DNA of 64,000 bases from an uncultured Actinomycetota bacterium (GTDB taxonomy: Bacteria; Actinomycetota; Actinomycetes; JAFAQI01), in contig CAWFEP010000002.1 in assembly GCA_963814845.1 (NCBI GenBank), positions 302,015-366,014 of the forward strand, written 5' to 3'. The first letter of the stretch is position 1, and each line of letters begins with the position of its first letter. A program made the translations under genes and the position numbers. This document shows, piece by piece, positions 28,311-56,821 of the stretch. The notes beneath the pieces are model-generated. The model worked only from the letters and a program-made list of their open reading frames with translations. It searched no databases and was not told the DNA's origin.

Positions 28311-28330
28311 CGTTGCTTTTGGCCTAGTGC

Positions 28331-30120: not shown

Positions 30121-30122
30121 GC

Positions 30123-31575: not shown

Positions 31576-31710
31576 GCGACCCCTGGTGGGTTGTGCAGGC
31601 CGTTGGTCTTCGGGTGGTTCGCGACCCCTGGTGGCTTACTCAGCCCGCTGGTCTTGGGGTGGTTCGCGACCCCTGGTGGGGGCGATGGCGGTTGGTTGCC
31701 TTGGGGGTTT
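31576..31710. repeat. Three tandem ~45-bp direct repeats in the cysN-cysQ spacer
   Basis: GCGACCCCTGGTGG recurs at 31576, 31621 and 31666 (exact 45-nt period). Each copy is followed by a related ..TTGGTCTT(C/G)GGGTGGTTC tail, and the third unit is more diverged. Confidence 0.85.
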
Positions 31711-31713
31711 GGG

Positions 31714-32469
31714 GTGAGCGGGCTTTCTGATGCGGAGTTGGCTCGGGAGCTTGCGACGAGCGCGGGTGAGTTGTTGCTCGCGTTGCGGGATGAGATGGGG
31801 TTTGCCGATCCTTGGGCGTTGCGAGATGCCGGGGACTTTCGCTCTAACGTGCATTTGCTGGGGTTGCTGTCCGAGTCCCGTCCGGATGATGTCGTGCTGT
31901 CGGAGGAGTCGGCCGACGATCCTCGACGGCATGAGGCCGAGCGGTTGTGGATCATCGATCCGCTCGATGGCACCACTGAGTTTGGTGAGCCAGGGCGGAC
32001 TGACTGGGCCGTACATGTCGCGTTGTGGCAGCGCGGCGAAGGCCTTATCGAGGGGGCAGTGGCGTTGCCGGCACGTGGTGTGACGTTGTCGACGGCCGAC
32101 CCGTTGCCGCCGCTGCAGACACCTCCCGCTCAGCCGCGTCTGGCGGTGAGTCGGACCCGTCGACCGGCTTGGGTGGTCGCGGTTGCCGAACAGGTTGACG
32201 GCGTGCTCACGCCAATCGGAAGTGCCGGCATGAAAGCGATGTCTCTGCTTCTTGGTGAGGCCGATGCTTACCTGCACAGCGGGCCGATGAAGGAATGGGA
32301 CTCCGCTGCACCGGTCGTGGTCGCCGCGAAGGCTGGCCTGCACGTCAGTGACTTGAGCGGCGGCCCGCTGATCTTCAACAAGCCCTCTCGGTTGACCGAG
32401 CAGCTGTTGATCTGCCACCCATTGCTGACCGGGCCTTTGGTCGACGCGTACTCAGGACTGGCGCACTAG
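31714..32469 (+). CDS. cysQ: 3'(2'),5'-bisphosphate nucleotidase (inositol monophosphatase family)
   Basis: VLSEES, WIIDPLDGTTEF and later WDSAAP are motifs of the IMPase/CysQ fold. A GTG start at 31714 gives an N-terminus (SDAELARELA..) colinear with mycobacterial CysQ. Confidence 0.8.
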   Translation: MSGLSDAELARELATSAGELLLALRDEMGFADPWALRDAGDFRSNVHLLGLLSESRPDDVVLSEESADDPRRHEAERLWIIDPLDGTTEFGEPGRTDWAVHVALWQRGEGLIEGAVALPARGVTLSTADPLPPLQTPPAQPRLAVSRTRRPAWVVAVAEQVDGVLTPIGSAGMKAMSLLLGEADAYLHSGPMKEWDSAAPVVVAAKAGLHVSDLSGGPLIFNKPSRLTEQLLICHPLLTGPLVDAYSGLAH

Positions 32470-33438
32470 CCGCACGATCTGTGCGACGGCCTCCTCGAGC
32501 GGCACCGTCATGGTGTCGATGACGAGGTCGGCGTCACGTGGTGCTTCGTACGGATCGTCGATCCCGGTGAATCCCGTGATCTCCCCGGCGCGCGCCTTCG
32601 CGTAGAGCCCCTTCACGTCACGGCGTTCGCACTCCGCGAGCGGAGTGGAGATCCAGACGAGGATGAAGGCGCCCGGGCCGCCGGCCGCCTCGACCGTTCT
32701 TCGGACCCACTGCCTGGTCTCGTCGTACGGTGCAATCGGCGCGCAGACGGCTATCCCGCCGTGCTTCGTCACCTCGCCGGCTACCCAACCAATCCGGCGG
32801 ATGTTGAGGTCTCGATCCTCGCGGGAGAAGCCAAGGCCGCGGCTGAGGTGAGTCCGTACGACGTCGCCGTCGAGGAGGGTCACCGTGCGCTCGGCCGCGA
32901 GCTGCTCTACGACGGCCCGGGCGATGGTCGACTTGCCAGATCCCGACAGACCGGTCATGAAGATCGTCCGGCCCGCCCCGGTTGGCTGGGCAATGGTGTC
33001 GACGTCGAGCTGCGGCCCGGCGGAGTACGCCGCGGCGAGCGCAGCCGCGCGCGGTCCTGCGTCAGCGGCCGTGACCGGGATAGGGGCAACGTCAGCAGCG
33101 GTCGCGGTCCAGGCGTTCGACCATGCGATGTGCCGTGCGTCGTCGGCGCGCACGCCGGCGGCGGGGAGCAGCAACAGCACTCCGGCGGGCAGTGAGCCGG
33201 CAGGGATCCGGTCAGCGACGGCGACCACGACCGCGGCCTCGCTGTCGCCAGCCGGCAGCTGCCAGATCGACGGCTGGAGGCTGATGACCTGATCCGCCTC
33301 ACGCCGCGCGATCGGCGTCCCTTCCTCGTCGAGGTAGACGTCGCCGTCTTCGCCCGGCAGGGTGTCGAGCGGGGCAAGGCCGATGATGACCTGCTCGAGC
33401 CGCGCCCGGTCGGCGACGTCGATCGTGATCTGCGACAT
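32452..33438 (-). CDS. cysC: Adenylyl-sulfate kinase with ~160-aa N-terminal extension
   Basis: The C-terminal half has the P-loop GLSGSGKST, LDGDVVR and FSREDRDLNIRRIG typical of APS kinase. The N-terminal half is of unrecognised family. Confidence 0.85.
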   Translation of the reverse strand: MSQITIDVADRARLEQVIIGLAPLDTLPGEDGDVYLDEEGTPIARREADQVISLQPSIWQLPAGDSEAAVVVAVADRIPAGSLPAGVLLLLPAAGVRADDARHIAWSNAWTATAADVAPIPVTAADAGPRAAALAAAYSAGPQLDVDTIAQPTGAGRTIFMTGLSGSGKSTIARAVVEQLAAERTVTLLDGDVVRTHLSRGLGFSREDRDLNIRRIGWVAGEVTKHGGIAVCAPIAPYDETRQWVRRTVEAAGGPGAFILVWISTPLAECERRDVKGLYAKARAGEITGFTGIDDPYEAPRDADLVIDTMTVPLEEAVAQIVRLVRQS

Positions 33439-33482
33439 TGCCCGCACATTAGCCGCGTCGGACGGGCTGAGAGACTGCGGGC

Positions 33483-34625
33483 GTGGACTTCTCCCTGACC
33501 GATGAGCAGAAGGCGTTTCGGAGCAGCGTGTACGACTGGGCTGCCGCCACGATCGCGCCTGGTGCGAGCGATCGCGACAAGGAGGGCCGCTGGGATCCGG
33601 AGATCTGGAAGTCGCTGGCCGCGCAAGGACTTGCCGGTCTGCCGATCCCGGAGGAGTACGGCGGGGCCGGCGCCTCGATCATGGACTGCCTCATCGCTAA
33701 CGAGGCGATCGCCGAGGGCGGCCACGATGGCGGCTTCAATCTCTCCCTTGGCGCACATTGGGTCATCGGGTCGGTGCCGATCTGGCTGCATGGCACCGAG
33801 GAGCAGAAGCGGCGCTGGCTGCCGGGCCTGACCGACGGTTCGATGATCGGGGCGTGGGCGTCGACCGAGCCGGAAGCCGGCTCCGATGCCGGCGGGTTGC
33901 TCACGACTGCGGTTCGCGATGGCGAAGACTGGGTGCTCAACGGCAACAAGATGTTCATTACCAACGGCCCGATCGCGGACGTCTGCACTGTGCTCGCTAA
34001 GACCTCGGATAAGGGCGCGACCGCGTTTATCGTCGACACCGGAAACCCAGGCTTCCAGGTCGGACGGGAGCTCGACAAGATGGGCTGCCGATCCTCACCG
34101 ACGGCCGAGATCGCACTGGTGGACTGCAAGGTGCCAGGCGACGCGTTGCTGGGCACGGAGGGGGCGGCGTTGTGGGAGGTCGCGTTCGAGTGCTTCGACT
34201 GGGAGCGCACGGTCATGATGGGTGGCGCGCTCGGCGGAATGCAAAGCACGTTGAACGTCTCGATCCAGTACGCCAAGGACCGCAAGCAGTTTGGCCGTCC
34301 GATCTCGTCGTTTCAGGCGATCGCGCACAAGCTGGCTGAGATGAAGGTCCGGCTCGAGACCTGTCGCAACGCGGTCTATCGCGCGGCCTATCTCAAGCAG
34401 ACCGATGTGGAGCACCAGATGGAAGCGTCGATCGCGAAGTATCTCGTCGGCGAGCTGAGTGTGCAGAACGCCCTCGACGCGATCCAGATCCACGGTGGTT
34501 ACGGCTACCTGCGGGACTTCGGCGTCGAGCGCGCGCTGCGTGATGCCAAGCTTGGCTCGATCGGCGGCGGCACGTCGGAGATCCAGAAGCTGATCATCAG
34601 CCGCCTCTTGCTCGGAGAAGGCTGA
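33483..34625 (+). CDS. Acyl-CoA dehydrogenase
   Basis: 380 aa with ...GAWASTEPEAGSD..., ...KMFITNG..., and C-terminal QIHGGYGY...E(R/L)..RDAK...I..GTSEIQ. Confidence 0.85.
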   Translation: MDFSLTDEQKAFRSSVYDWAAATIAPGASDRDKEGRWDPEIWKSLAAQGLAGLPIPEEYGGAGASIMDCLIANEAIAEGGHDGGFNLSLGAHWVIGSVPIWLHGTEEQKRRWLPGLTDGSMIGAWASTEPEAGSDAGGLLTTAVRDGEDWVLNGNKMFITNGPIADVCTVLAKTSDKGATAFIVDTGNPGFQVGRELDKMGCRSSPTAEIALVDCKVPGDALLGTEGAALWEVAFECFDWERTVMMGGALGGMQSTLNVSIQYAKDRKQFGRPISSFQAIAHKLAEMKVRLETCRNAVYRAAYLKQTDVEHQMEASIAKYLVGELSVQNALDAIQIHGGYGYLRDFGVERALRDAKLGSIGGGTSEIQKLIISRLLLGEG

Positions 34626-34636
34626 GGGGCGCAGCG

Positions 34637-35158
34637 ATGACCGACCTATCGGAGATCGAGCGCGCGGAGTTGTTGCGGCCGCTGGAGTTCCTCATCGGTA
34701 CCTGGCGGGGCGAGGGGGTAGGCGCAGTCCCTGGTGGCGGTGGGCCGGATTACCCGTACGCCGAGGAGTTGCGCATCTACGACGACGGCTCGCCGTGGTT
34801 GGCGTACAGCACCCATGTCGTGGCCACCGACGATGGCCGCTGGTTGCACTCAGAGTCTGGCTGGTGGCGGCCGCAGCCAGTCGCCGAGGACGGAACGGTG
34901 GCGGTCGAGCTGGTGCTGACGCGACCTACGGGCGTGACCGAGGTGCTGATCGGGCACGTCATCGTCGGCCCGGTCGGGGAGCAGGTCGAGCTCGCGAGCG
35001 ACGTCGTGGCGCGCACGCCGACGGCTCCGGCTATCACCGCTGACAAACGGCTGTATGCGGTCCGCGCGGGCAAGTTGATGTACGCCATCGATCTTGCGGC
35101 CGGTGAGACCGGTCTCGCGCCGCACCTCGCCGCTGCCCTCGACCGTCACATCGAGTGA
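34637..35158 (+). CDS. Nitrobindin/FABP-like beta-barrel (DUF1794) protein
   Basis: LEFLIGTWRGEGVG...YPYAEELRI... ...ESGWWRP pattern of the THAP4-like heme-binding barrel family. Confidence 0.6.
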   Translation: MTDLSEIERAELLRPLEFLIGTWRGEGVGAVPGGGGPDYPYAEELRIYDDGSPWLAYSTHVVATDDGRWLHSESGWWRPQPVAEDGTVAVELVLTRPTGVTEVLIGHVIVGPVGEQVELASDVVARTPTAPAITADKRLYAVRAGKLMYAIDLAAGETGLAPHLAAALDRHIE

Positions 35159-35315
35159 GGAGTTCGGGTCAGGGGGTTTGGCGGTCTGGCCTCGTTAGAG
35201 GGTGGTTATCTGGCCATAGCTCGGCGGCGGGGTCGGATTCGGACGGTTCAGTGTGGTTTGCCGACATTCCCCGCGCTTGAGGGGTCAAGCGTGATGTGGC
35301 GATGCCGAAACCTCT

Positions 35316-36629
35316 ATGAGGGGTGATCTACGCCCGGGACCATGGCGGAGGTGTGACGTGCGGTCGTGCGCTGGGTGGCTGCGGCGCGGCAGCGTGGCGA
35401 CGGTAACCGTCGTGTCGCTGTGCGCGGTGCTGAGCCAGCCCGTGATTGCCCACGCCAACTCCACCGGCTCTGCGCCGGTAACGACCTGCGCGGTGCTGAG
35501 TCAGGGATCGACCGGCGCTGCCGTAAAGACGATCCAAAAGGCTGTCGGTGCGAGCGTCGACGGCGATTTCGGCCCGCTGACCGCCAAGGCGCTCAATGCC
35601 TGGCAGAAGGCCCACAACGTCCCGGTCAGCGGTGTGGTGGACGCAGCGACGTGGGCCGCTCTGCCGACCGCGGCCGGCCGCAAGGCTTGCGCCCAACCGG
35701 TGAGCGGCAGCGGCGTGGCCTTGACCTGCGCCTCGCTGTCCTCCAATGCGACCGGCCTTGCCGTGGCGGTGCTCCAGAAGACCATCGGAACGACGGTCGA
35801 TGGCGACTTCGGTGCCGCGACGCTCGATGCGGTCAAGAAGATCCAGCAGGCCGCCAAGCTGAACGTCACCGGCGTCACGACCGCGGCGACCTGGAAGGCA
35901 ATCAAGCTGCTCGGCACGCCCGAGTGCTCGACTGCAGAGACCGTCGCACCGCACCAGTCGGCCGACGCCAAGGCGCAGGCCAAGATGCGGCAGCCGGGTC
36001 GACACACTGGCCGCCGAGCTGGTGAAGCGACCAGGCACGACGAAGAACCAGGTCGCGCTGCAGGCCATGGCGTTTGCCAAGAAGCAGATCGGCAAGCCCT
36101 ACATCTGGGGTGGCGACCGGGCCCGAAGGGCTACGACTGCTCCGGCCTGCAGATGACGGCGTTCCTCCACGCCGGGCTTGAGCATTCCGCGTACCGCGGC
36201 CGAGCAGTACGCCGGTGCCAGGCGAGTACGTGCCGCTCAACAAGGCCAAGCAGGGCGACCTGTTGTTCTACGCCAGCGACGTCACGAAGCCGTCGACGGT
36301 CTACCACGTCGCGATGTACATCGGCGGAGGCAAGCTGCTCGATTCGCCACAGACCGGCGAGAACGTCCGGGTCGACCCGCTGTGGACGACCGACCTGATG
36401 CCGGTCGTGGTGCGCCCGGTCGCCGGCCTGAAGCTGCCGGTGAAGCTCGGCGCGACCGGGATGGACGGTGACCCAGCTGCAGCAGGACCTGAATCGCCAC
36501 GGCGCGGCGCTGACCGTCGATGGCGGATTCGGGCCGGCCACCGAGACGGCCGTCCTGGCCTGGCAGCAGGCGCACCAGCTCACGGCGACCGGCGTCGTGC
36601 GCGTCTCTACCTGGCTGACCCTGAAGTAG
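35316..36629 (+). pseudogene. Secreted NlpC/P60 (C40) peptidoglycan endopeptidase with three PG_binding_1 domains, several frameshifts
   Basis: Signal peptide, two PG-binding repeats (GAAVKTIQKAVGASVDGDFGPLTAKALNAWQ; VAVLQKTIGTTVDGDFGAATLDAVKKIQ), catalytic region GKPYIWGG / GYDCSGLQMTAF / VYHVAMYIGGGKLLDSP on different frames, and a third PG-binding repeat (LQQDLNRHGAALTVDGGFGPATETAVLAWQ) at the C-terminus. Confidence 0.8.
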
Positions 36630-36643
36630 ACGACGGCGTCAGT

Positions 36644-36675
36644 GCGCCCGGGACGTGAAAACCCCCGGGCATTTA
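36644..36675 (+). terminator. Candidate hairpin terminator after the P60 gene
   Basis: GCCCGGG (36646-36652) pairs with CCCGGGC (36664-36670), followed by ATTT. A second long-range pairing CCCCCGGGCA...TGCCCGGGGG reaches ~36730. Confidence 0.35.
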
Positions 36676-37124
36676 CCGCTCGCCGCCATGGCGGCGCGGT
36701 TGCCGGCTGGACGGGCCGGCTGCCCGGGGGCGCGGTGACTGTCGAGGGATTCGCCGGACGCCGTGCGCCCGGTCTCGTCTCACACCGAGTCCGCTGACGG
36801 CGCCTAGCTGACCGTCACCTCACGAGTCCTGCGTGTATTCAAAGCGTGGACCACCTCCCTTCTCGTGTGCTGGCAGCCTAAGCCTTCGGGCCGGAATGCC
36901 GAAGGAATTAATCGACCGACGCACCTGCCCACAGCTGTCGTTGCGCGGTCCTTGCGAGGAGGCGCGAGCCACGTCTTCGGGAATGGCGCTGACAGGCGAG
37001 CAGACGCGCCTTAGCCTGGAGCGGCTTTCCTTTGAGAATGTGGGGACCAACGCGTGACACTCGCGGCGGACGAACCGGTCGGCAGCGCCCGATTTGACGC
37101 CCGCTGTCCGGAAGGTGCTGCACC

Positions 37125-38561
37125 GTGCCGCTCGGGAGACAGCGGCGGCCGGTTGATGTCTGGGAGCGCCGTTATCTTCGGCGTCTGGTCCTCGTCGATT
37201 TCGCGATCATCCTGGGCAGCACGCTGCTGGCCTTGCATGTTCGATTCGGCAACGCCGATGACTCGGTCAGCGGCGTGTCCTATGCGATGCTGAGCGTCCT
37301 GCTGGTGCCGGTCTGGCTCGGCGCGCTGGTCATCGCCCGCGCCTATGAGATGCGCTTCCTGGGCACCGGTGCGGACGAGTTCAAGCGGGTCAGCAGCGCC
37401 TCGCTGCGACTGATGGCGGTGGTCGCGGTCGTCGCCTACACGTTCAAGATCGAGTTGGCCCGCGGCTATGTCGCGGTCGCGCTGCCGGTCGGCACCGTGC
37501 TGCTGCTGCTCGGTCGCTACGGCCAGCGGCGGCTGCTTGCACGCCCGGCGCCGACCGTGGGGCAGTTCATGCGCCGCGTCATCGTCGTCGGCGGCGTCGA
37601 AGGCGTCCGTGATCTGGCCGAGCCAGTTCATCCGCGAGCCCTACGTCGGCTACGCCCTTGTCGGGGCTTGCCTGCCGACGTCGAGTGAGGCGTTCGCGAT
37701 GCCCGACGTACCCGTCCTTGGCTCGCTGACCCAGGTCCTGAGCCGCGGTCGCCGAGGTGGGCGCCGACACGGTCGCGGTGGCGTCCGGACCAGGCATGTC
37801 GCCGGCGGTGCTGCGCCGGCTGTCCTGGGAGCTCGAGGGCACCGGTGATCGGCTCGTCGTGGCGCCGGCGCTGCTCGACGTCGCCGGCCCGCGGATCAGC
37901 GTGCGGCCGGTCGCCGGCCTTCCGCTGCTCCACGTCGAGGAGCCGGAGCTCTCCGGCGTCCGCCAGGTCATGAAGGCCACGGTCGAGTGGGTCGTGTCGC
38001 CACGGCCGCGTTCCTGCTCGTGCTGCCGCTGCTGTCGTGCTCGCCGTCATCGTGCGGCTCGACAGCGAGGGCGCGCCGCTGTTCCGGCAGACCAGGGTCG
38101 GCAAGAACGGCCAGCGAGTTCACCGTCTACAAGATCCGCACCATGCGGGCGGACGCCGAGTCGCTGCTCGACTCGCTGCGTGAGCAGAACGAGTCCGCGG
38201 ACGGGCTGCTGTTCAAGATTCGCAAGGACCCGCGGGTCACCCGGGTCGGTGCGTTCCTGCGCAAGTGGTCGCTCGACGAGCTGCCGCAGCTGTGGAACGT
38301 CGTGCGCGGCGACATGGCGCTCGTCGGTCCCCGCCCGCCGTTGCCGGTGAGGTCGCGCAGTACGGCGCCGAGGTGGCCCGCCGGCTGCTGGTGCGGCCCG
38401 GCATCACCGGTCTGTGGCAGGTGTCGGGCCGCTCCAACCTCAGCTGGGACGACAGCGTGCGGCTGGACCTCTACTACGTCGAGAACTGGTCGTTGGCACT
38501 CGACGCGATGATCGTCTGGAAGACCTTGTTCGCGATCTTCCGCAACGACGGCGCGTACTAA
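37125..38561 (+). pseudogene. Polyprenyl-phosphate sugar-1-phosphate transferase (WbaP/ExoY 'bacterial sugar transferase' family), several frameshifts
   Basis: N-terminal TM bundle, then [91 protein letters not shown], with frame switches near 37615, 37745, 37985, 38040, 38110 and 38340. Confidence 0.85.
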
Positions 38562-38575
38562 GAACTCGAGTCGGT

Positions 38576-39448
38576 CTACACCGAGTCGGTGAGGTCGGGG
38601 CCGAGGGTCTTGACGGCTTCATACAGCGCATCACGCCAATGCGGCAGCTCAGGCAGGCCCGCGCGTTGCCACTTCGTCGTGGACAGCACCGAGTAGGCCG
38701 GGCGCGGGGCTGGACGTGGGAATGCTGCTGTCGTCGTCGGCGTCACTCGTGCCGGGTCGAGGCCGAGCTTGGCGAAGATCGCGGTCGCAAAGCCGAACCA
38801 CGTCGTCTCACCACCGCCAGTGCAGTGCCAGACGCCGGGCTCGACATCAGCGACGCCGAGGGCAGTGAGGCCTCGTGCCAGGTGGAGCGACCAGGTCGGT
38901 GAGCCGCGCTGATCATCAACCACGTCAAGCGTCTCGCGCTCCCGCGACAGCCGGACGATGGACTTGACGAAGTTGGGCCCGCCGACGCCGTAGACCCACG
39001 CGGTCCGCACGATGTGCGCGTCACCGCCGGCTGCCAGGACGGCTTGCTCGCCGGCCGCCTTGGACCGGCCGTACGCCGATCGCGGGTCGATCGGGTGGTC
39101 AACGTCGTACGGCGTCGTGGCATCGCCGTTGAAGACGTAGTCGGTCGAGACGTGGATCAGCCTGGCGCCGTTGGCCGCACACCACGCGGCGAGATGGCCG
39201 GGCGCGACCCCGTTGATCAGCGTGGCAGTTGCCTCGTCGGCTTCGGCAGCGTCGACGGCGGTGTAGGCGGCGCAGTTGACAACGACTGTCGGCGCGGCGT
39301 CAGACAACGCCCGATCGACCGCACCGCGGTCGGCGACGTCGAGATCGTGATGGTCGAGCGCAGTCACCTCAGCGCGATAAGCCCGCAACAGCTGCTCGAC
39401 GTCGGTGCCAAGCTGGCCGCCGGCACCGGTGACCAGCCACCGGGTCAC
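38576..39448 (-). CDS. rmlD: dTDP-4-dehydrorhamnose reductase
   Basis: [14 protein letters not shown]...[12 protein letters not shown]...STDYVF...YGRSK.GE; the GTG start overlaps the rmlB stop (GTGA at 39445-39448). Confidence 0.88.
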
Positions 39449-40426
39449 GAGGTCAGCGCTTTGAGTGGCCGCCACCAGGATTCGTTGTCGCGATACCACT
39501 GCACGGTCGCGGCAAGCCCGGCATCGAATGCCGACCTGCGGCGAGTAGCCGAGCTCGGCGCGCAGCTTTGAGTCGTCGAGGGAGTAGCGCCGATCGTGAC
39601 CCTTGCGGTCCTCGACCGCCTCGACCGAGGACCAGTCGCGGTCGCACGCCTCGACGAGCCGTTGGGTCAGGTCGCGGTTGGTCATCTCGACGCCGCCGCC
39701 GATGTTGTAAATCTCGCCAGCTCGGCCACGTTCGAGCACGAGCGCGATCGCCTGGCAATGGTCGTCTACGTGCAGCCAGTCGCGAATGTTGAGCCCGTCG
39801 CCATACAACGGCACTGAAAGCCCGTCGAGCAAGTTGGTGACGAACAGCGGGATGACCTTCTCCGGGAACTGGTAGGGCCCGTAGTTATTGGTGCAGCGGG
39901 TGATCACCACGTCGAGCCCATGCGTCACGACGTACGAACGCGCGATCAGGTCGCCGCCGGCCTTCGCCGCGGAGTAGGGCGAGTTGGGCTCGAGCCGGTC
40001 GGTTTCGTGGAACGAACCCTCGGCGATCGATCCGTAGACCTCGTCGGTCGAGACCTGCAGCACGCGCGAGACGCCGGCGCCTAGGCAAGCGTCGAGCAGC
40101 GTCTGAACGCCCACGACATTGGTCGTCACGAAGTCGGCCGCGCCGTTGATCGACCGGTCGACGTGCGACTCGGCGGCGAAGTTGAGGACCGCGTCGTGGC
40201 CAGGAAGCACCTGGTCGAGCAACGCGGTGTCGAGGATGTCGCCATGCACGAAGGTGTAGCGGTCGCTGTCCGAAACCGGGGCGAGGTTCTCGAGGTTGCC
40301 GGCGTAGGTGAGCTTGTCGTAGACCGTCACGTCGGCACCTGCGTACGCCGGGTAGCCGTCATTGAGCAGCGTGCGGACGAAGTGCGACCCGATGAAGCCT
40401 GCACCACCGGTCACCAGAAGCCGCAC
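39445..40426 (-). pseudogene. rmlB: dTDP-glucose 4,6-dehydratase; a single frame disruption near 39525 merges it artificially with rmlD
   Basis: [15 protein letters not shown]...AAESHVDRS...YSAAKAGGD...; after GYSPQV the conserved tail [27 protein letters not shown] is only read after a 1-nt shift. Confidence 0.88.
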
Positions 40427-40451
40427 GCCGAAAGGATACGGTCGACCCGCA

Positions 40452-41339
40452 ATGAAGGGCATCATTCTCGCCGGCGGCACCGGATCTCGGCTGTGGCCGA
40501 TCACCCGGGCCATCTCCAAGCAGTTGATGCCGGTCTACGACAAGCCGATGGTCTACTACCCGCTCTCGACGCTGATGATGGCCGGCATCCGCGACATCCT
40601 CGTCATCACGACCCCGCAGGACGCTGAGCAGTTCGGGCGGCTGCTCGGTGATGGCTCGGAGCTCGGCATCACGGTCAGTTATGCGGTCCAGCCGGAGCCT
40701 AAGGGGCTCGCCCAGGCCTTCACGATCGGCGCGGAGTTCATCGCCGACAACTCGGTCGCGCTCGTCCTTGGCGACAACATCTTCTACGGTTCCGGGCTCG
40801 GGTCGCGCCTGTCGACCCTCGCCGAAGTTGATGGCGGCCACATCTTCGCCTACCAGGTGGCAACCCCGTCTGAGTACGGCGTGGTGGAGTTCGACACAGC
40901 CGGACTCGTGATCTCGATCGAGGAGAAGCCAACTGTGCCGCGCAGCTCCTACGCCGTGCCGGGGTTGTACTTCTACTCCCATGACGTCGTCGAGATTGCG
41001 CGGTCGCTGACGCCGAGCGCGCGTGGGGAGCTCGAGATAACTGCAATCAACGACGCGTACCGGCAGCAGGGGCGGCTGCAGGTCAGTGTCCTGCCGCGAG
41101 GAACCGCCTGGCTCGACACCGGGACCTTCGCGAGCCTGGTGCATGCGTCGGAATTCGTTCGGGTGGTCGAGGAACGCCAGGGCATGAAAATCGGCTGCCC
41201 GGAAGAGATTGCGTGGCGTAACGGCTGGTTGAGTGACGATGAGCTGCGGGCGCAGGCCTCGATCTTGAGCAAGAGCGGATACGGCGACTATTTGCTGTCG
41301 TTGCTCAATGTCCGGACGCCCCGAGACCAATCACGATGA
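40452..41339 (+). CDS. rmlA: Glucose-1-phosphate thymidylyltransferase
   Basis: [57 protein letters not shown] is colinear with RmlA. It is divergent from rmlB with only ~25 bp between the start codons. Confidence 0.92.
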
Positions 41340-50115: not shown

Positions 50116-51172
50116 ATGGCAACGCACAAGCGACACAGTCGTCGACGCAAGTTCGGCGCGGTCGGAGCAGCCGCTGTTGCGGTGACCGGCGCGGCGGGCG
50201 CATGGATAGGGACCGCCAACGCCGCTATCCCCTCGGCCAGCGGAAAGATCTATGGCTGCTATAGCCCGAAGAGCGGCGACCTTCACGTCTACAGCAAGGG
50301 CAGTAGGGCACATGGTTGCCCGGCTGGCTTCAAGACGCTCGTGTGGAACGTCGCGGGAGCCAAGGGAGCAACTGGTGCGAAGGGCGCGACCGGAGCCAAG
50401 GGCGCGACGGGCTCGCAAGGCGCGACGGGCTCGCAAGGCGCGACCGGTGCGCAGGGCGCTACTGGCTCGCAGGGTGCCGATGGCGCTCAGGGCGCGACCG
50501 GTGCTCAGGGCGATAACGGGTGCACAGGGTGCAGCCGGCCCGCAAGGTGCCGATGGTGCGCAAGGCGCGACCGGAGCACAGGGCACCGTAGGCGCGCAGG
50601 GTGCGGTTGGCGCCCAAGGCGATGTCGGCGCGCAGGGCAGCACGGGTGCCCAAGGCGATGTCGGCGCGCAGGGATTTCAAGGATTCCAAGGCGCGACTGG
50701 CCCACAGGGTTTCCAAGGATTCCAGGGTGGCACCGGCGCGCAGGGCAGCCAAGGAGGCGCCGGCTCGCAGGGTGGTAACGGCGCGCAGGGCAGCCAGGGA
50801 GGCGCCGGCTCGCAAGGCGCTAACGGCTCGCAAGGCGCGCAAGGCAGCCAGGGCCCGCAGGGCGCAGCAGGCGCTCAGGGCGCTCAGGGTGCGCAGGGTC
50901 ATCAAGGTTTCCAGGGCGCTACTGGAGCCCAGGGACCGGCAACCGGCGTCGGCCTCGTCGAGGAGACCAACAGCGGCGCGGGCGATGTGTCAGTGAACTG
51001 CCCAGCGAACGACGTCGCGACTGGAGGCGGCTTCCTCAACGCGATGCAGGATGTCGTGGGCTCGTTCCCGATCGGTGGCACGCCACCGACTGGATGGCAG
51101 ATCGATGCCAACGGCGACACCAGCGTCACGGCGTACGTCATTTGCGTGCCGTCTGGCGCGCCCCCCTCCTGA
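50116..51172 (+). pseudogene. Secreted collagen-like (Gly-X-Y) protein, paralogue 4; one 1-nt frame disruption
   Basis: [36 protein letters not shown] and head [41 protein letters not shown] register is restored if one G is removed at ~50520 (aacgggtgca). Tail GDVSVNCPANDVATGGGFLNAMQDVVGSFPIGGTPPTGWQIDANGDTSVTAYVICVP. Confidence 0.8.
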
Positions 51173-51236
51173 GCCCGCGACGGCGCCAAAAGGCTGTTCG
51201 AACGAACCAGGTTGGTCGGGGTTCGTACCATGGGGA

Positions 51237-52092
51237 ATGACCAGTCCGCTGCTTGACCGCCCCGGTGCGGTCCAGGGTGTCGGAGTCGATGCCGGTGTCG
51301 CCGCGCATTACGGCGATCCGTTCGGCGAGCAGCGGCAACTGATCGAGACCGGTGGCGTCGTGGATCGCTCGCACCGCGGAGTGTTGCGGGTGAGCGGCGC
51401 GGACCGACTGTCGTGGCTGCATTCGTTGACCTCGCAGCACCTTGAGTCCTTGCCGAGCGATGAGGTACGTGAGGCGTTGGTGCTCTCGCCGCACGGCCAT
51501 GTCGAGCATCACCTCGTGCTTCGCGACGATGGTGACGGCGACATGGATCACGGTCGAGCCGGAAACGGTTGAGGCGCTCGCGACGTATCTCAACTCCATG
51601 CGGTTCATGCTCCGGGTCGAGGTGAGTGACGAGACACCGCTATATGCGGTGCTGTCAGTCCGCAGCAACGGCGGCTGGGAAGACATGACCGTGCCACGCG
51701 CAGAGCCTCCGAACGGGTCGACGCCGTCGGCCTGCCGCTGGTTGGACATGGTGCCTACGAGGCCTGCGGGTGGAGGCGCACGTGCCGCGGCTGGCGTTCG
51801 AGACCGACCACCGGACAATCCCGCACGAACTCGGCTGGATCGGCTCGGCTGTGCACCTCGACAAGGGGTGCTATCGAGGGCAAGAAACCGTTGCGCAGGG
51901 TTCATAACCTGGGGCCGTCCGCCGCGTCGGCTGATCTTCGGACACCTCGATGGAACTGCTGACGAGTTGCCGCCGGCTCACACCCCGGTCGAGCTTGACG
52001 GGCGTGCGGTCGGCTTCCTTGGCACTGCGGTGCAACACGCCGAGCTTGGGCCGATCGCACTCGCCGTCGTCAAGCGGGCGAGCCGAAGATGA
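51237..52092 (+). pseudogene. ygfZ: YgfZ/GcvT-like folate-binding protein, frameshifted
   Basis: HYGDPFGEQRQL...VDRSHRGVLRVSGADRLSWLHSLTSQHL...LSPHGHVEHHL, then ITVEPETVEALATYLNSMRFMLRVEV and the C-terminal ..GFLGTAVQHAELGPIALAVVKR in other frames. Confidence 0.65.
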
Positions 52093-52157
52093 CGCCATGC
52101 TCGACCGTCGAGGGCATGGCGATGAAGCCGGAACGGGTTGTCGACGCTTAGTAACTG

Positions 52158-54014
52158 TTAGCCGGGGTTAGAGCCCGAACAGGCCGATCTTCTTCTTGGT
52201 CTTCTTGTCAACGACGTTGGGCCGGGGCCTTGTGTGCCGTGGCGGCGCGCAGTCGGTGCGCTTGGCTCGTCGTCATCGATGCCGAGCGAGGACAGCTCGC
52301 GCAGGAGTGCGGCAGTGTCCGCCTGACCCGCGTCGCTCCAGGCTTCCTCGGCTCGGCTCGTCGGCATCGGCCTCTTCGACCTCGGCAGCGGGGTCCGCTG
52401 AATCGTCCACTGCGGTGGCCGTCTCATCGGCGGCTACAGGCTCGGGCTCGTTCGTTGTTGCCAGCTCGACGAGCAGGGCGGTCGCTGCCGCGGCTTCATC
52501 TGCGGCCCGCGCCGCATCGTCGGCGGCTTGGCGTTCCGCCTTGCGTCGGCTGACGCGGTCGCCCTTGGCCTCGTCATCGGTCACGTTCGCCGAGTCCTGC
52601 TCGACTGGTTCCGTGTCGATGGACAGGCTGTGGAGCTCCGCGGCCGAGACCCGCTCGGACTCTTCGGCTTCGATCCGCTCCGCTTCTGGCCGCTCGGCTT
52701 CGATCCGCTCGCTTCGGCCTGCTCCGCGGCGATCCGCTCGGCCTCTTCCTCAGCGGCGGCCAGTTGAGCAGCTTCTTCGGCGGCAATCCGCTCGGCCTCT
52801 TCAGCAGCGATTCGCTCCGCTTCTAGCCGCTCGGCTTCGACTCGCTCCGCTTCGGCCTGCTCTGCGGCGACTCGCTCGGCCTCTTCGGCGGCGATCCGCT
52901 CAGCCTCGGCTTGCTCTGCCTCGGCTTGCTCAGTGGCGATCCGTTCGGCTTCGATTCGTTCAGCGTCGAGTCGATCGGCCTCCGCCTGTTCGGCTGCGGC
53001 TCGTTCGGCTTGCTTCGGCTTCGATCCGCTCGCTTCGATGCGCTCGGCCTCGACCTGCTCTGCGACTGCCTGCTCTGCGGCTGCTTGCTTGCTGCTCGTG
53101 CGTCACCTTCGAGCTGCCAGTATTCGGCCCACGCGAGCTCTTCTGCGCCAGGCGCTCGGCGTGCTCGGCGGCAATCCGTTCGGCTTCCACTCGCTCGAGC
53201 TCTAGCCGCTCCAGCTCAGCCGCGTCAGTGTGCTCAGTCTGCTCATCCTGCTCGGCGATGAGGTCGGCTGGCTCGTCCTCAGTCGACGGGTGTGCCTCGA
53301 CCGAGCCCTCAGGGCCAAACTCGATGTCGACGGTGGCGTCGCTGGCCGAGTCGATCGCTGCGTCGACCTCAGTGTCGAACTCAGTGTCGAACTCAGTGTC
53401 GAACTCAGTGTCGAACTCAGTGTCGACTTCGATGTCACTGGCAGCGTCGACGTCGACGTCGGTCGCACCTCGATCGCAGTGTCGACGTCGGTCGCACCGC
53501 CGATCTCAGTGTCGACATCGTATCGGTCGCAGTATCGGTCGCAGTATCGGTGGCAGCCTCGAACTCGGCCGCTTCCAGCTGCTCAGCCGGCTCCTGCTCA
53601 GCGCCGGTGTCCCAGCTCTGTTGATCGGTCGTGAAGTCTTCGGTGCGCTCGTCGCCCTCGATGTCGGCGACGAGGGTGTCGGAGGACTGCTCGCCGTGCT
53701 CATTCGATGCGGTGGTGTCGTGATCGGCCCGCAGCGTTTCGACCATCGCCTGGGCGCTCGCGAGCTCGGCTGCCGCGGCTGAACGCAGCCGCTTGCGACG
53801 CTGCCATTCGGGATCGCTGGTCGATCCTCGCGATCGTTTGAGCGCGACCGTCGCCCGCGCTGCCGTTGTCACCCTCGAGCGCGTCCGGCGTCTCGCCGAG
53901 GACATCCGACAGTGCGTTGGACACGCGCGCGATTGAGGCTGCGAACGACTCGTTCGAGTGGCGATGCAGCGGCACGATCATCGGGTTGTCGAAGGAGGTA
54001 ACGCCTGAGCTCAA
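52158..54014 (-). pseudogene. Acidic Glu/Ala-rich repeat (coiled-coil-like) protein, multiple frame changes; forms an operon with the DUF4388 gene
   Basis: The TTG start overlaps the DUF4388 stop. Segments MSSGVTSFDNPMIVPLHRHSNESFAASIARV, ELASAQAMVETLRADHD, (TEFD)x5, long [10 protein letters not shown]-type repeats, and ALLRELSSLGIDDDEP with a possible ..KKTKKKIGLFGL* tail are distributed over all three minus frames. Confidence 0.5.
53368..53427. repeat. Five tandem 12-bp units (minus-strand codons for TEFD)
   Basis: CTCAGTGTCGAA is repeated five times, exact except for the last base. Confidence 0.9.
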
Positions 54015-54988
54015 CGGGGCGCGAGCGCCACTCGGTCGGCTGCCTCGTCTGGCTCGAATTCCTCGCCGGAATCGTCCCGGGGATCCTCGTCTTGCGGATG
54101 TTCACCCGCAACCTCGTTCACCAGGCGGGCCAGGCGGCTCAGGACGTCTTCGTCGTCGCCGCCGGCTTGCTCGCCGGTGTCGTCTGCCTTCCCCTCGTCC
54201 GAGGTCGGCTCGTCGAGCTCACCGGCCAGCGCCGAGGTCAGCGTCGACGCGCCGTATAGCTCGCTGCCAGCGATGTCGACGTCCTCTTCAATGTCAACCA
54301 GGCCAGCCTGGACGAGCAGCACGATGATCTGGCCGGCCTCGAACAACGTGTAGCCGCAGTCGCGGGCGAGGTCGGCAACCGAGCGTTCGCCGTCGATTTT
54401 GCACAGCATCGACCAGGCGTCGTTGTCCAACGTCGTCTCTGCGGGTGCAGCATCGCGCGCCGACAGCATCGGGATCGCGGCTGGCCCGTGGACGATGGCG
54501 GAGATGTTCTCCCACTCATAGCCGCGGTCGCGCAACGTGGCGAGCAGTTCAACCACGGGCATCGGCGGACCGACGTCTTCGCGGGCTCGGATGTTCTTAC
54601 GGAACTTCCAGCGCCCGTCGGTCCAGCGCAACAGGTCCCAGAGAGCTTCGGTGACCTGCTCCATGACAAAGGCCTCGACCACCGGCTGATCGACGTAGCC
54701 GAGGTGGACGAGGAGCTCACCGAGGCGCCAGCCCTGCAGCTCGCTGCGCTGGGCCTCGAGGGCCTCGGCGAGCGCTTCTGGAGCGAGCGCGCCGGAGGAG
54801 ACAAGCTTCGCGCCGAGCTGAGGTCGCGTGCCCGGCACCGAGACCGAGTAGATCAGGCCGTTCTTGACGAAGATGAGCGCCTCATCGCCGACCGGATTTG
54901 TCACGTGGAGGCAGCCGGTGGCGGCGTCCGAGGCGAGATCGCGGAGCAGGGGGGCGAGCGGAGTAGACGTCAGGTCGCCTTTGAGCAT
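54011..54988 (-). CDS. DUF4388 (PatA-N-like) domain protein with acidic C-terminus
   Basis: MLKGDLTSTPLAPLLRDLASDAATGCLHVTNPVGDEALIFVKNGLIYSV is the canonical DUF4388 opening. The ATG at 54988 is preceded by AGGAGG. Confidence 0.6.
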   Translation of the reverse strand: MLKGDLTSTPLAPLLRDLASDAATGCLHVTNPVGDEALIFVKNGLIYSVSVPGTRPQLGAKLVSSGALAPEALAEALEAQRSELQGWRLGELLVHLGYVDQPVVEAFVMEQVTEALWDLLRWTDGRWKFRKNIRAREDVGPPMPVVELLATLRDRGYEWENISAIVHGPAAIPMLSARDAAPAETTLDNDAWSMLCKIDGERSVADLARDCGYTLFEAGQIIVLLVQAGLVDIEEDVDIAGSELYGASTLTSALAGELDEPTSDEGKADDTGEQAGGDDEDVLSRLARLVNEVAGEHPQDEDPRDDSGEEFEPDEAADRVALAPR

Positions 54989-55313
54989 GGACGACCTCCT
55001 CATACGTGCGTGTAGTGACGCTGTGGGCTACCTCCTTCCCTTCGGCACTTCAAGCGTCAGTGTTGAGCCAATTGGCGCAATCGGACCGTCACGGCGGTGT
55101 CTCGTCGTGGCACGATGTCGCCATGGCCTCGCCGAGTGGGATCTTCACGGCCCAATTGAGCGTGAAAATCGCCCGGTTGGACCACCGTTCGGTAGCGTCG
55201 GGGGGCCGGATCCCCGCGGTCGCCCAGTGCCTGCCGGTGGGGCCCGACCGGCCTCGCGTCATGCTGGGGATCTCAGGCGCCCGATCGAATCCGACGTAGA
55301 CGAAGGCGAACGC

Positions 55314-55868
55314 ATGACACAGCCCGGTGGAAATCGCCGCATTGACCGAGTCCTCGCCGAGGGGTTCCTCGACAGAGTGACCGAAGTCTCTCTTGACGAA
55401 CTGCGCACGATGCGGGCCGATGCCGAGCAGGAGGAGACCGATCTGTCCTACCTGCGTCGGTTGTTGCAGGGTCGGCTCGACATACTTCGGGCCGAGGCCG
55501 GGCGGCGCGCCGGCGGCGAGGGAGCAGCGTCCCTGTTGGACCTGTTGCCGGGCATTCTCGCCGATGAGGGCGGTCAGAGCGCCGCGCACGGCTTGGGTCG
55601 CCACACCTCATCTGAGCCATCCCGCGCCGACCTTCACCGTCGTTATGTCGAGGCTCTCGTGGCCGACGTCGCGATGTCGGATCCGTCTGGTCACAGTGAC
55701 GAGTCGCTCGCGCGTGCCATCGATGTGCTGGAGCGCGAGGAGGCGACGGTGTCGGCTAACCGGCACGCCGTGCAAGAGGTGATGGATCGATGCACCGCGG
55801 AGATCACCCGGCGGTATCGCGAAGGCGACGCCGACGTCGCTGACCTGTTGCCCAGCGAGTCAAACTGA
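55314..55868 (+). CDS. rsiG: RsiG-like anti-sigma factor with two c-di-GMP-binding E(x)3S(x)2R(x)3Q(x)3D motifs
   Basis: Residues 41-56 ETDLSYLRRLLQGRLD and residues 143-158 EATVSANRHAVQEVMD both fit E-x3-S-x2-R-x3-Q-x3-D exactly, within a 184-aa predicted helical protein. Confidence 0.65.
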   Translation: MTQPGGNRRIDRVLAEGFLDRVTEVSLDELRTMRADAEQEETDLSYLRRLLQGRLDILRAEAGRRAGGEGAASLLDLLPGILADEGGQSAAHGLGRHTSSEPSRADLHRRYVEALVADVAMSDPSGHSDESLARAIDVLEREEATVSANRHAVQEVMDRCTAEITRRYREGDADVADLLPSESN

Positions 55869-55888: not shown

Positions 55889-56821
55889 GTGGTCGCGGAG
55901 GTTGTCCGCGGCGGTTTCGTCGAAGGCCATCACGCGGGCAGTGTGATCGCGGTTCGTGCTGACGGCACGACCGCGCTTGCAGCTGGCTCGCCGGAGGCGC
56001 CGATGTTGCCTCGTAGTGCGGCGAAGCCACTGCAGGCAGTCGGAATGCTGCGCGCTGGCCTCGTTGTCGATGACGAACAACTCGCCGTGGTATGCGCCAG
56101 TCATTCCGGTGAGCCGCGCCACCTCGACATCGTCCGGTCGATCTTGTTTCAGGTTGGTCTGGACGAGTCGGCGCTGGACAACACGCCCGGAATGCCCCTC
56201 GACGGCGAAGCGCGGCGAGCAATGATCCGCGCGGGCGAGGGTCCGAGTCGGCTGGCGCAAAACTGTTCGGGCAAGCACGCCGGGATGATCGCCACGTGCG
56301 TCGCGGCTGGCTGGCCCACTGCTGGCTACCGCGAGCCGGAGCACCCGTTGCAGCAGGCGCTGCGGTCAACGATCGAGGAGCTCAGCGCTGAGACTGTCAC
56401 CGCGACGGTCGTCGACGGCTGTGGGGCGGCGCTGTTCGCGGTGACCCTCGTCGGACTGGCTCGGTCGTTCGCGCGGCTGGGGACCGCGGCCGAAGACACT
56501 GCCGAGCATCGCTGTGTCGTGGCGATGCGGGCATATCCCGAGCTCGTCGGTGGCCGCGGCCGCGATGTGACCCGCCTCATTGCGGGTGTGCCAGACCTCA
56601 TTGCGAAGGATGGCGCCGAAGGTGTCTACGCCGTTGCCTTGTCAGACGGCCGCGCCGCAGCGATCAAGATTGACGACGGCGCGGAGCGAGCTCGACTGCC
56701 GGTGATGGTGGCGGCGTTGCGGGCGCTAGGAGTCGATGCGCATGTGCTTTCCGAGCTGGCAACGGTTGCGGTCCTCGGCCACGGCGAGCGGGTTGGCGAG
56801 GTTCACGCCACTTTGATCTGA
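55889..56821 (+). CDS. Asparaginase (Asparaginase_II / PF06089-type)
   Basis: VVRGGFVEGHHAGSVIAVRADGT...PRSAAKPLQAVGML...CASHSGE...NCSGKHAGM... follows the pattern of this family. Confidence 0.7.
   Translation: MVAEVVRGGFVEGHHAGSVIAVRADGTTALAAGSPEAPMLPRSAAKPLQAVGMLRAGLVVDDEQLAVVCASHSGEPRHLDIVRSILFQVGLDESALDNTPGMPLDGEARRAMIRAGEGPSRLAQNCSGKHAGMIATCVAAGWPTAGYREPEHPLQQALRSTIEELSAETVTATVVDGCGAALFAVTLVGLARSFARLGTAAEDTAEHRCVVAMRAYPELVGGRGRDVTRLIAGVPDLIAKDGAEGVYAVALSDGRAAAIKIDDGAERARLPVMVAALRALGVDAHVLSELATVAVLGHGERVGEVHATLI

What the first reader, a model, noticed from the sequence alone, without database searches (positions are those of the whole stretch)
55314..55868. RsiG-like protein carrying both c-di-GMP-binding E(x)3S(x)2R(x)3Q(x)3D motifs, divergent from a DUF4388 operon
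Seen in sequence: the 184-aa protein contains ETDLSYLRRLLQGRLD (nt 55434-55481) and EATVSANRHAVQEVMD (nt 55740-55787). Each matches E-x3-S-x2-R-x3-Q-x3-D exactly and they are separated by ~100 residues. Established knowledge: this signature on two antiparallel helices is how Streptomyces RsiG binds a c-di-GMP dimer to sequester sigma WhiG, and homologues exist across Actinobacteria. Inference: this organism probably has a c-di-GMP-gated sigma/anti-sigma switch. The cognate sigma is not in the window. The divergent neighbour (DUF4388 plus an acidic coiled-coil protein) could be part of the same developmental or motility circuitry.
Basis: partly seen in the sequence, partly recalled or inferred. 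Interest (0 to 1): 0.6.

Follow-up and report, generated by a model that had tools for sequence, protein, structure and literature searches.

The report
Genuine RsiG c-di-GMP anti-sigma factor
This gene encodes an ordinary but genuine member of the known RsiG family, which uses the messenger c-di-GMP to hold the sigma factor WhiG inactive; in this uncultured soil actinobacterium the switch appears to control type IV pilus genes and the large neighbouring gene.

Summary
Window 55314-55868 (+) encodes a 184-aa protein with two exact E-x3-S-x2-R-x3-Q-x3-D motifs. It scores 106.5 bits against Pfam RsiG (cut-off 27). It aligns end to end with Streptomyces venezuelae RsiG (PDB 6PFJ, E 2.7e-30), and its AlphaFold model finds only RsiG chains in the PDB.

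No WhiG gene is in this assembly. However, the assembly is incomplete: more than 130 kb around whiG in a congener has no counterpart here. All four congeners carry a WhiG2-type sigma with every c-di-GMP and RsiG contact residue conserved. Among 22 near-complete relatives, 19 have both proteins and 3 have neither.

The "DUF4388 operon plus acidic protein" is one ~937-aa gene. It encodes a PATAN/DUF4388 domain with an MshEN-like insert and an acidic helical rod. In the window it is broken by indels that are most likely assembly errors.

A WhiG-type promoter lies in front of this gene in 34 of 38 loci. The same promoter type precedes pilT (27 of 30) and a second RsiG-like paralogue (17 of 21). 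The genus has no flagellar export gene.

Verdict: a new member of a known family. The predicted lineage-specific regulon (type IV pili and a possible second c-di-GMP receptor) is the interesting part.

The parts
55314..55868 (+). rsiG: 184-aa twin-motif RsiG anti-sigma factor (P0001)
   Evidence: Pfam PF22802 RsiG, 106.5 bits, E 5.5e-31. Full-length match to S. venezuelae RsiG, 6pfj_T, E 2.7e-30. AF2 model hits only RsiG chains, probability 1.0, TM 0.63-0.76. The identical protein is found on 14 contigs.
55434..55481 (+). c-di-GMP motif 1 (ETDLSYLRRLLQGRLD, residues 41-56), on predicted helix 27-70
55740..55787 (+). c-di-GMP motif 2 (EATVSANRHAVQEVMD, residues 143-158), on predicted helix 129-169
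55039..55066 (-). WhiG2-type promoter TCAA-N16-GCCGAAGG directed at the PATAN gene (-35 at 55063-55066, -10 at 55039-55046)
   Evidence: Matches the published consensus T(A/C)AA-N16-GCCGATAA (preprint 10.64898/2026.01.14.699351). Present in sense orientation in 34 of 38 orthologous loci, with 0 antisense hits, 0 hits in coding sequence and 0.45 expected from shuffles. No such site points towards rsiG.
52168..54988 (-). One gene of ~937 aa: PATAN/DUF4388 head, acidic linker, conserved middle segment, Glu/Ala-repeat helical rod and basic C-terminal tail. In the window it is split into fragments by small indels.
   Evidence: The G004 orthologue is one 978-codon open frame. Four metagenome contigs that encode the identical RsiG call one 932-937-aa gene. 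The window differs from L033 by 22 indels between 50515 and 54016 (21 of 1-2 bases plus one 12-base repeat unit) and by none between 54016 and 57184. The C-terminal peptide and stop codon lie at 52168-52170.
54656..54826 (-). MshEN-like tandem motif inside the PATAN domain (residues 55-111 of P0122): RPQLGAKLVSSGALAPEALAEALEAQ, 7 residues, then RLGELLVHLGYVDQPVVEAFVMEQ
   Evidence: NCBIfam NF053729 (c-di-GMP motif, MshE-related) scores 36.3 bits against a cut-off of 38. The family profile matches MshE 5htl at E 0.007, and also PilB 5zfr and PilF 6f8l. Leu, Gly and Gln positions are invariant in 21 homologues. The AF2 model shows a four-helix insert at 58-119.
55889..56821 (+). Asparaginase II family gene 21 nt downstream of rsiG, possibly co-transcribed
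   Evidence: Pfam PF06089, 359 bits. The same gene order is seen in all contigs that extend past rsiG.

Best explanation
[quoted passage not shown] Two long helices, each carrying one E-x3-S-x2-R-x3-Q-x3-D motif, pack antiparallel and clamp a c-di-GMP dimer. The nucleotide-loaded protein binds and sequesters the sigma-28-family factor WhiG (WhiG2 clade). When c-di-GMP falls, WhiG is released and transcribes its regulon. In this non-flagellated, uncultured Frankiaceae-like lineage the predicted regulon has three parts. The first is the divergently transcribed PATAN/MshEN-like rod protein next to rsiG. The second is type IV pilus genes: pilT, and in this genome also a pilin-like gene. The third is a second, nth-linked RsiG paralogue. 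Shown here: family membership, motif conservation, fold match, co-occurrence with WhiG2 in relatives, and conserved promoter motifs. Inferred: c-di-GMP binding, WhiG binding, presence of whiG in the unassembled part of this genome, and promoter use by WhiG.
For: Family: Pfam RsiG 106.5 bits against a cut-off of 27, with both halves matched. Full-length alignment to S. venezuelae RsiG 6pfj_T, E 2.7e-30, and to single-motif Rubrobacter RsiG 7lq2-4, E about 1e-8. About 43% identity to RsiG-Sv.

Fold: AF2 model with pLDDT 74.5 and long helices at 27-70 and 129-169. The four top Foldseek hits are the RsiG chains of 6pfv/6pfj, and nothing else scores below E = 1.

Motifs: invariant across homologues and almost unique in the genome.

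Partner: WhiG above the TIGR02479 cut-off is present in all 4 congeners and in 34 of 40 relatives. Among 22 near-complete genomes, 19 have WhiG and RsiG and 3 have neither. The congener WhiG scores 402 bits to WhiG-Sv 6pfj_A. It keeps K57, G61 and R62 (c-di-GMP contacts) and T235, L236, Y239, E240 and L242 (RsiG contacts).

Signal: about 21 GGDEF genes in the partial genome.

Output: WhiG-type promoters are conserved in sense orientation upstream of the PATAN gene (34/38), pilT (27/30) and the RsiG paralogue (17/21). There are no antisense or coding-region hits, and fewer than 0.5 are expected from shuffles. FlhA is absent from the whole genus. A type IV pilus cluster is present on contig C5.
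Against: No WhiG/FliA-type sigma is found in this assembly. The best TIGR02479 hit is 120 bits and is a SigB/SigF-like gene. The partner in this organism is therefore inferred from congeners and from retained promoters. No binding was measured, and no complex model could be built with the tools at hand. The promoter assignments are sequence matches only. A second RsiG-family protein in the same genome could share or take over WhiG control. The model's linker (residues 84-105) is of low confidence, and I could not inspect model coordinates directly to measure helix packing.
Confidence: 0.85

Rival explanations
1. The canonical-looking RsiG here is no longer the main WhiG anti-sigma. The nth-linked paralogue (G000 C6:144355-144900, WhiG-promoted) does that job, and P0001 has a different partner or acts as a free c-di-GMP receptor.
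For: A second PF22802 protein is present in this genome and in nearly all relatives. It has an intact first motif and a conserved WhiG-type promoter, the wiring expected for a FlgM-like feedback anti-sigma.
Against: P0001 is far closer to the experimentally validated RsiGs: 109 bits full length to 6pfj_T against 19.6 bits for the paralogue. P0001 keeps all ten motif residues, whereas the paralogue has lost the second-motif Asp and has His for Gln. The distribution of P0001-type RsiG tracks WhiG2 exactly in near-complete genomes.
Confidence: 0.07
2. This strain has really lost whiG, and RsiG is an orphan left without a sigma partner.
For: No WhiG is found in 3.6 Mb of assembly. Neither whiG nor any flanking gene from G004 or G001 has a counterpart.
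Against: The missing block is more than 130 kb of the congener chromosome, not a gene-sized deletion. The assembly is rated 55% complete. All four congeners have whiG. WhiG-type promoters are intact in this genome in front of the PATAN gene, pilT, a pilin-like gene and the RsiG paralogue. The RsiG protein is identical in 14 independent contigs, which points to purifying selection.
Confidence: 0.05
3. The motif pair is a chance or compositional feature of a helical protein with no c-di-GMP function.
For: None beyond the absence of biochemical data.
Against:: profile, structure and conservation all identify RsiG, and the motif is almost unique in the genome.
Confidence: 0.01

Closest known systems
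RsiG (AmfC) of Streptomyces venezuelae/coelicolor, PDB 6PFJ and 6PFV (Gallagher et al. 2020, PMC7005675)
   Same: Same Pfam family, same length, and both E-x3-S-x2-R-x3-Q-x3-D motifs on two long helices. Full-length alignment at about 43-45% identity, and it is the best structural match. The partner sigma in congeners is about 80% identical to WhiG-Sv with all contact residues kept.
   Different: The organism is an uncultured, small-genome (about 3.5-4.4 Mb), Frankiaceae-like actinobacterium with no evidence of aerial hyphae. The predicted regulon is type IV pili and a PATAN protein, not whiH/whiI. The PATAN neighbour was found at none of the ~45 Pseudonocardiaceae loci, the single Streptomyces-labelled locus or the Kineococcus locus examined.
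Twin-motif RsiG with WhiG2 of Geodermatophilus obscurus (Denis et al. 2026 preprint, 10.64898/2026.01.14.699351)
   Same: A twin-motif RsiG paired with a WhiG2-clade sigma outside Streptomyces, with regulon diversification towards motility, pili and c-di-GMP genes.
   Different: Geodermatophilus also has WhiG1 and flagella. This genus has neither: there is no FlhA and only one WhiG-class hit.
Single-motif homodimeric RsiG of Rubrobacter radiotolerans, PDB 7LQ2-7LQ4 (Schumacher et al. 2021, PMC8325347)
   Same: The same motif and helix (E about 1e-8). The switch there controls type IV pilus genes, as predicted here.
   Different: The Rubrobacter protein is about 85 aa with one motif and works as a dimer. 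The protein here is the derived monomeric twin-motif form.
FlgM/FliA of flagellated bacteria
   Same: An anti-sigma factor for a sigma-28-family factor. The WhiG-promoted RsiG paralogue would resemble the FliA-dependent expression of flgM.
   Different: The fold is unrelated. FlgM is controlled by secretion, not by a nucleotide.
MshEN c-di-GMP receptor domain (V. cholerae MshE, PDB 5HTL; Wang et al. 2016, PMC5013675) and PATAN/DUF4388 domains of cyanobacterial PatA-type regulators: comparators for the neighbouring gene
   Same: The neighbour has a Pfam DUF4388 head (70 bits). Embedded in it is a tandem 24-residue motif with the conserved Leu-Gly, Gly, Leu and Gln positions.
   Different: The first motif has Gln in place of the stacking Arg. 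The spacer is 7 residues, not 5. The NCBIfam score lies just under its cut-off. There is no ATPase or receiver domain; instead there is an acidic repeat rod of roughly 400 residues and a basic tail. Binding is untested.

Membership tests
RsiG (Pfam PF22802), twin-motif class | Profile match above the curated threshold | tested here: met
   106.5 bits against a cut-off of 27, with two matched stretches. 82.5 and 34.8 bits in the six-frame genome search.
RsiG (Pfam PF22802), twin-motif class | Two E(X)3S(X)2R(X)3[Q/H](X)3D motifs, one on each of two long helices | tested here: met
   Residues 41-56 and 143-158, on predicted helices 27-70 and 129-169. Invariant in homologues.
RsiG (Pfam PF22802), twin-motif class | Antiparallel coiled-coil fold like 6PFJ | tested here: met
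   Foldseek finds only RsiG chains (6pfv_T/E/B, 6pfj_T) at probability 1.0 and TM 0.63-0.76, and nothing else scores below E = 1. Model coordinates could not be inspected directly.
RsiG (Pfam PF22802), twin-motif class | Co-occurrence with a WhiG2-clade sigma that keeps K57/G61/R62 and the sigma-4 contact residues | tested here: inconclusive
   Not found in this incomplete assembly. Met in all four congeners, and 19 of 19 near-complete RsiG-positive relatives have WhiG.
RsiG (Pfam PF22802), twin-motif class | Binds a c-di-GMP dimer, and binds WhiG only when loaded | not testable with these tools
   Needs DRaCALA or ITC, pull-down or two-hybrid assays, or a complex prediction with ligand.
MshEN c-di-GMP receptor domain (asked of the neighbouring PATAN gene) | Tandem 24-residue motifs RLGxx(L/V/I)(L/V/I)xxG(L/V/I)(L/V/I)xxxxLxxxLxxQ joined by a 5-residue spacer | tested here: inconclusive
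   The second motif fits: RLGELLVHLGYVDQPVVEAFVMEQ. The first has Gln (or Asp) in place of Arg, and the spacer is 7 residues. NF053729 scores 36.3 bits against a cut-off of 38. The profile matches 5htl at E 0.007. The whole-domain Foldseek search found nothing significant.
PATAN / DUF4388 (PF14332) (asked of the neighbouring gene) | Profile match above the curated threshold | tested here: met
   70 bits against a cut-off of 25, over profile positions 1-121 of 122. The precomputed hit is PatA_N on the intact gene.

The most novel reading that the evidence does not exclude
In Frankiaceae-like, Acidothermaceae, Sporichthyaceae and Motilibacteraceae lineages the RsiG-WhiG2 switch may be hard-wired into a compact, undescribed module. 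WhiG, once released at low c-di-GMP, would switch on three things: type IV pilus genes (pilT and, in this genome, a pilin-like gene); the divergently encoded ~940-aa PATAN rod protein, whose embedded MshEN-like pocket would make it a second, post-translational c-di-GMP receptor acting on the pilus machinery; and an Asp-less RsiG paralogue giving FlgM-like negative feedback. The same messenger would then gate both the synthesis and the activity of the output.
Probability: 0.3. Interest if true: 0.6.

Novelty: new member of a known kind. Interest (0 to 1): 0.35.

Why it matters
RsiG itself is well understood, so this gene adds a member, not a mechanism. What it offers is context. [quoted passage not shown] It also points to what the switch controls there: type IV pili and a large PATAN protein that may itself read c-di-GMP. 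This extends the published picture of WhiG regulon diversification (Rubrobacter pili, Streptomyces sporulation, Actinoplanes flagella). It also names concrete promoters and proteins that can be tested, for example in the cultured relative Acidothermus cellulolyticus.

Tried and rejected
1. I looked for WhiG in the window's own genome with TIGR02479. The two best hits are SigB/SigF-like genes next to anti-sigma kinase genes, and one of them is frameshifted. Neither is WhiG.

2. I tested whether whiG was specifically deleted. No gene from 18 kb (G004) or 12 kb (G001) around whiG, nor from about 130 kb of the G004 chromosome, has a collinear counterpart here. The loss is therefore an assembly gap, not a gene-sized deletion.

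I used independent metagenome contigs that carry the identical RsiG instead.

4. The reading [quoted passage not shown] is rejected. The fragments are one gene in congeners and in four other assemblies.

5. Foldseek of the whole 260-residue PATAN head against the PDB gave no significant hit. The best matches were weak longin/roadblock plus winged-helix proteins. The MshEN link therefore rests on sequence profiles only.

6. I searched for a WhiG-type promoter pointing at rsiG and found none in 12 loci.

7. The genome-wide promoter scan is noisy: 110 hits against about 34 expected from base composition. I rely only on sites that are conserved in orthologous loci.

8. Full-text searches for DUF4388 or PATAN together with c-di-GMP or MshEN found no description of this actinobacterial protein.

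Full report
OBSERVATION. Window 55314-55868 (+) translates without a stop to a 184-aa protein, P0001. ETDLSYLRRLLQGRLD is residues 41-56 (nt 55434-55481). EATVSANRHAVQEVMD is residues 143-158 (nt 55740-55787). Both match E-x3-S-x2-R-x3-Q-x3-D exactly. I counted the motif, allowing Q or H, in every open frame of at least 100 aa in all six frames of the genome. It occurs 8 times in 3.79 million residues: twice in this protein and once in its paralogue. The coordinates and the claim are correct, and the pattern is not chance.

WHAT IT IS. Pfam RsiG (PF22802) matches at 106.5 bits against a cut-off of 27, with both halves of the protein matched. Against the PDB, the protein aligns over residues 4-179 with S. 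venezuelae RsiG ("AmfC", 6pfj_T, E 2.7e-30). Its first helix also aligns with the single-motif Rubrobacter RsiGs (7lq2-4, E about 1e-8).

The ten motif residues are invariant in 24 homologues of 64-85% identity. Nine of the ten remain invariant when S. venezuelae RsiG and class-level relatives are added. The first-motif Gln is His in two sequences, a replacement already known and tolerated in the family (PMC8325347).

An AlphaFold2 model (pLDDT 74.5) has long helices at 27-70 and 129-169 that carry the motifs. Foldseek against the PDB returns the four RsiG chains of 6pfv/6pfj at probability 1.0 and TM 0.63-0.76, and nothing else below E = 1. The family holds at least 3061 proteins in the large database. 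The few named ones are "aerial mycelium formation protein" from Frankiaceae or Mycobacteriales MAGs.

THE PARTNER SIGMA. The window's genome (G000, 3.6 Mb, 18 contigs) has no TIGR02479 hit above the cut-off. The best hits are SigB/SigF-like genes beside anti-sigma kinase genes.

G000 is rated only 55% complete. No gene from 18 kb around whiG in congener G004, or from 12 kb in G001, has a counterpart in G000, whereas the rsiG region is collinear at 63-86% protein identity. About 130 kb of the G004 chromosome around whiG has no collinear match, and synteny resumes on contig C18. The absence is therefore an assembly gap.

All four congeners and 34 of 40 relatives have a WhiG above the cut-off. 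Among the 22 genomes that are at least 90% complete, 19 have WhiG and RsiG and 3 have neither. The G004 WhiG scores 402 bits to WhiG-Sv (6pfj_A). It keeps K57, G61 and R62, and also T235, L236, Y239, E240 and L242. These are the c-di-GMP and RsiG contact residues that define the RsiG-regulated WhiG2 clade (preprint 10.64898/2026.01.14.699351).

The partial genome holds about 21 GGDEF genes, so the signal is available. FlhA is absent from the whole genus and from nearly all of the family. It occurs in six relatives, five of which also have a second, sub-threshold FliA-like hit. This matches the published split between WhiG1 with flagella and WhiG2 with RsiG.

THE NEIGHBOUR. The ORFs at 54011-55003, 53700-54014, 53435-53905, 52273-52584 and 52158-52427 on the minus strand are pieces of one gene. 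In G004 the orthologue is a single 978-codon open frame. Four JGI metagenome contigs that encode the identical RsiG, and are 98.3-98.8% identical to the window, each carry one gene of 932-937 aa.

Relative to contig L033, the window has 22 indels between 50515 and 54016: 21 of one or two bases and one 12-base repeat unit. It has none between 54016 and 57184. The out-of-frame stretch still encodes the conserved peptide SGVTSFDNPMIVPLHRHSNESFAASIARVSNALSDVLGETPD. The nearest named genome is a "Microflora Danica" MAG. Patchy consensus errors are the likeliest cause of the indels.

The intact protein, P0122, has these parts in order:
- a PATAN/DUF4388 head (70 bits);
- an acidic linker;
- a conserved middle segment;
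- a Glu/Ala-repeat rod of roughly 400 residues;
- the conserved tail DTAALLRELSSLGIDD...KKTKKKIGLFGL.

Inside the PATAN head lies a four-helix insert (residues 58-119 in a model of pLDDT 82). It reads QLGAKLVSSGALAPEALAEALEAQ, then 7 residues, then RLGELLVHLGYVDQPVVEAFVMEQ. This resembles the tandem MshEN c-di-GMP motif (PMC5013675). NCBIfam NF053729 scores 36.3 bits against a cut-off of 38. The family profile matches MshE 5htl at E 0.007, and also PilB and PilF. The Leu-Gly, Gly, Leu and Gln positions are invariant in 21 homologues. However, the first stacking Arg is Gln or Asp, and the second is Arg, Lys or Asn. Whole-domain Foldseek was uninformative. c-di-GMP binding by this protein is therefore a reasonable but unproven hypothesis.

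LINKAGE. The PATAN gene lies next to rsiG and is divergently transcribed in 26 of 40 relatives spanning 8 GTDB families. The same holds in 27 of 80 named rsiG loci: Frankiaceae/Frankiales, Mycobacteriales MAGs, Acidothermaceae, Sporichthyaceae and Motilibacteraceae. It is not seen in about 45 Pseudonocardiaceae loci, one Streptomyces-labelled locus or Kineococcus.

The window carries TCAACACTGACGCTTGAAGTGCCGAAGG on the minus strand at 55039-55066. This matches the published WhiG2 consensus T(A/C)AA-N16-GCCGATAA. The same element, with variable spacer sequence, sits in sense orientation upstream of the PATAN gene in 34 of 38 loci. There are no antisense hits, no hits in the first 200 nt of coding sequence, and 0.45 are expected from shuffles. 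None points at rsiG.

OTHER PREDICTED TARGETS. A genome-wide scan is noisy: 110 hits against about 34 expected from composition. Three sites stood out, and I tested two of them in relatives.
- pilT (G000 C7:370231-371313): GTCAAG-N14-15-GCCGAA ends about 7 nt before the GTG start in 27 of 30 loci, reaching class-level relatives.
- The second RsiG-family gene (C6, next to nth): TCAAGCA-N13-GCCGAT lies about 54 nt upstream in 17 of 21 loci.
- A 672-aa pilin-like gene: its site lies inside a pilB-pilT-pilC-pilins-pilD-pilMNO cluster on C5.

PilT is missing from the three complete relatives that lack both RsiG and WhiG. Type IV pilus control by RsiG-WhiG was shown experimentally in Rubrobacter (PMC8325347). 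The prediction here therefore fits known biology.

MECHANISM. At high c-di-GMP, RsiG loaded with a c-di-GMP dimer holds WhiG2. At low c-di-GMP, WhiG is free and transcribes pilT, pilin genes, the PATAN gene and the RsiG paralogue. The first half is established for the family and inferred here by orthology. The second half rests on conserved promoter motifs. The PATAN protein may add a second, post-translational c-di-GMP input, and the paralogue may add FlgM-like feedback. Both ideas are speculative.

COMPARISON AND NOVELTY. This is a new member of a known family in a lineage not covered by the published surveys. The gene itself is ordinary. The lineage-specific wiring is not described in the papers I could search. 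That wiring comprises the divergent WhiG-promoted PATAN/MshEN-like gene, pilT and the paralogue. Earlier notes of this scan reached similar readings for the PATAN gene and the paralogue in other genomes. I treated them as leads and re-derived the synteny, single-gene structure and promoter statistics independently.

Noticed in passing
G000 C6:144355-144900 (+) (= L008 1444-1989); promoter at C6:144317-144344: A second RsiG-family gene (181 aa) lies next to nth. Its first motif is intact (ESRVSYWRRIIQARLD). Its second is ETQLSAYRAALHRRLS, with His for Gln and the Asp lost. It is present in nearly all relatives and has a conserved WhiG-type promoter in 17 of 21 loci, suggesting FlgM-like feedback.
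   Followed up: partly
window 50515-54016: There are 22 indels relative to an independent metagenome contig of the same population (21 of 1-2 bases plus one 12-base repeat unit), and none in the next 3.2 kb. They break the PATAN gene and the GCV_T-like gene at about 51.2-52.1 kb. This looks like patchy assembly error in a long-read MAG, and may partly explain the 55% completeness estimate.
   Followed up: partly
window 53368-53379: The window has one extra 12-nt unit (CTCAGTGTCGAA, one TEFD repeat on the coding strand) compared with contig L033. This is repeat-number variation in the acidic region of the PATAN protein.
   Followed up: no
G000 C7:361674-362325 (+) (L002/L003): A SigB/SigF-like sigma factor gene is split into two frames by a frameshift, downstream of an apparent anti-sigma kinase gene. 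It lies about 9 kb from pilT, and the same spacing recurs in several relatives.
   Followed up: no
G000 C5: about 26,200-40,700 (-): A type IV pilus cluster (pilB, pilT-like, pilC, pilins, pilD, pilM, pilN, pilO) lies upstream of aroC, with several frameshifts. PilB starts with an MshEN-type motif that also has Gln before Leu-Gly (MKQLGDILVEDG...), like the PATAN insert. A WhiG-type site at C5:34729-34756 precedes a 672-aa pilin-like gene with Ig-like repeats.
   Followed up: partly
relatives G010, G030, G031, G032, G033, G038: FlhA occurs in six relatives. Five of them also have a second, sub-threshold FliA/WhiG-like hit (162-181 bits); G038 has FlhA without such a hit, and G019 has such a hit without FlhA. 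This largely agrees with the published co-distribution of WhiG1 and flagella.
   Followed up: no
G010 C15:74977-76866: One relative carries a second rsiG-like/PATAN-like divergent pair. The PATAN copy has an in-frame TGA.
   Followed up: no
loci L016, L017, L022, L023, L025, L026: In several genera of the family the rsiG-PATAN spacer is about 1 kb rather than 0.2-0.3 kb, so another small gene or element may lie between them.
   Followed up: no
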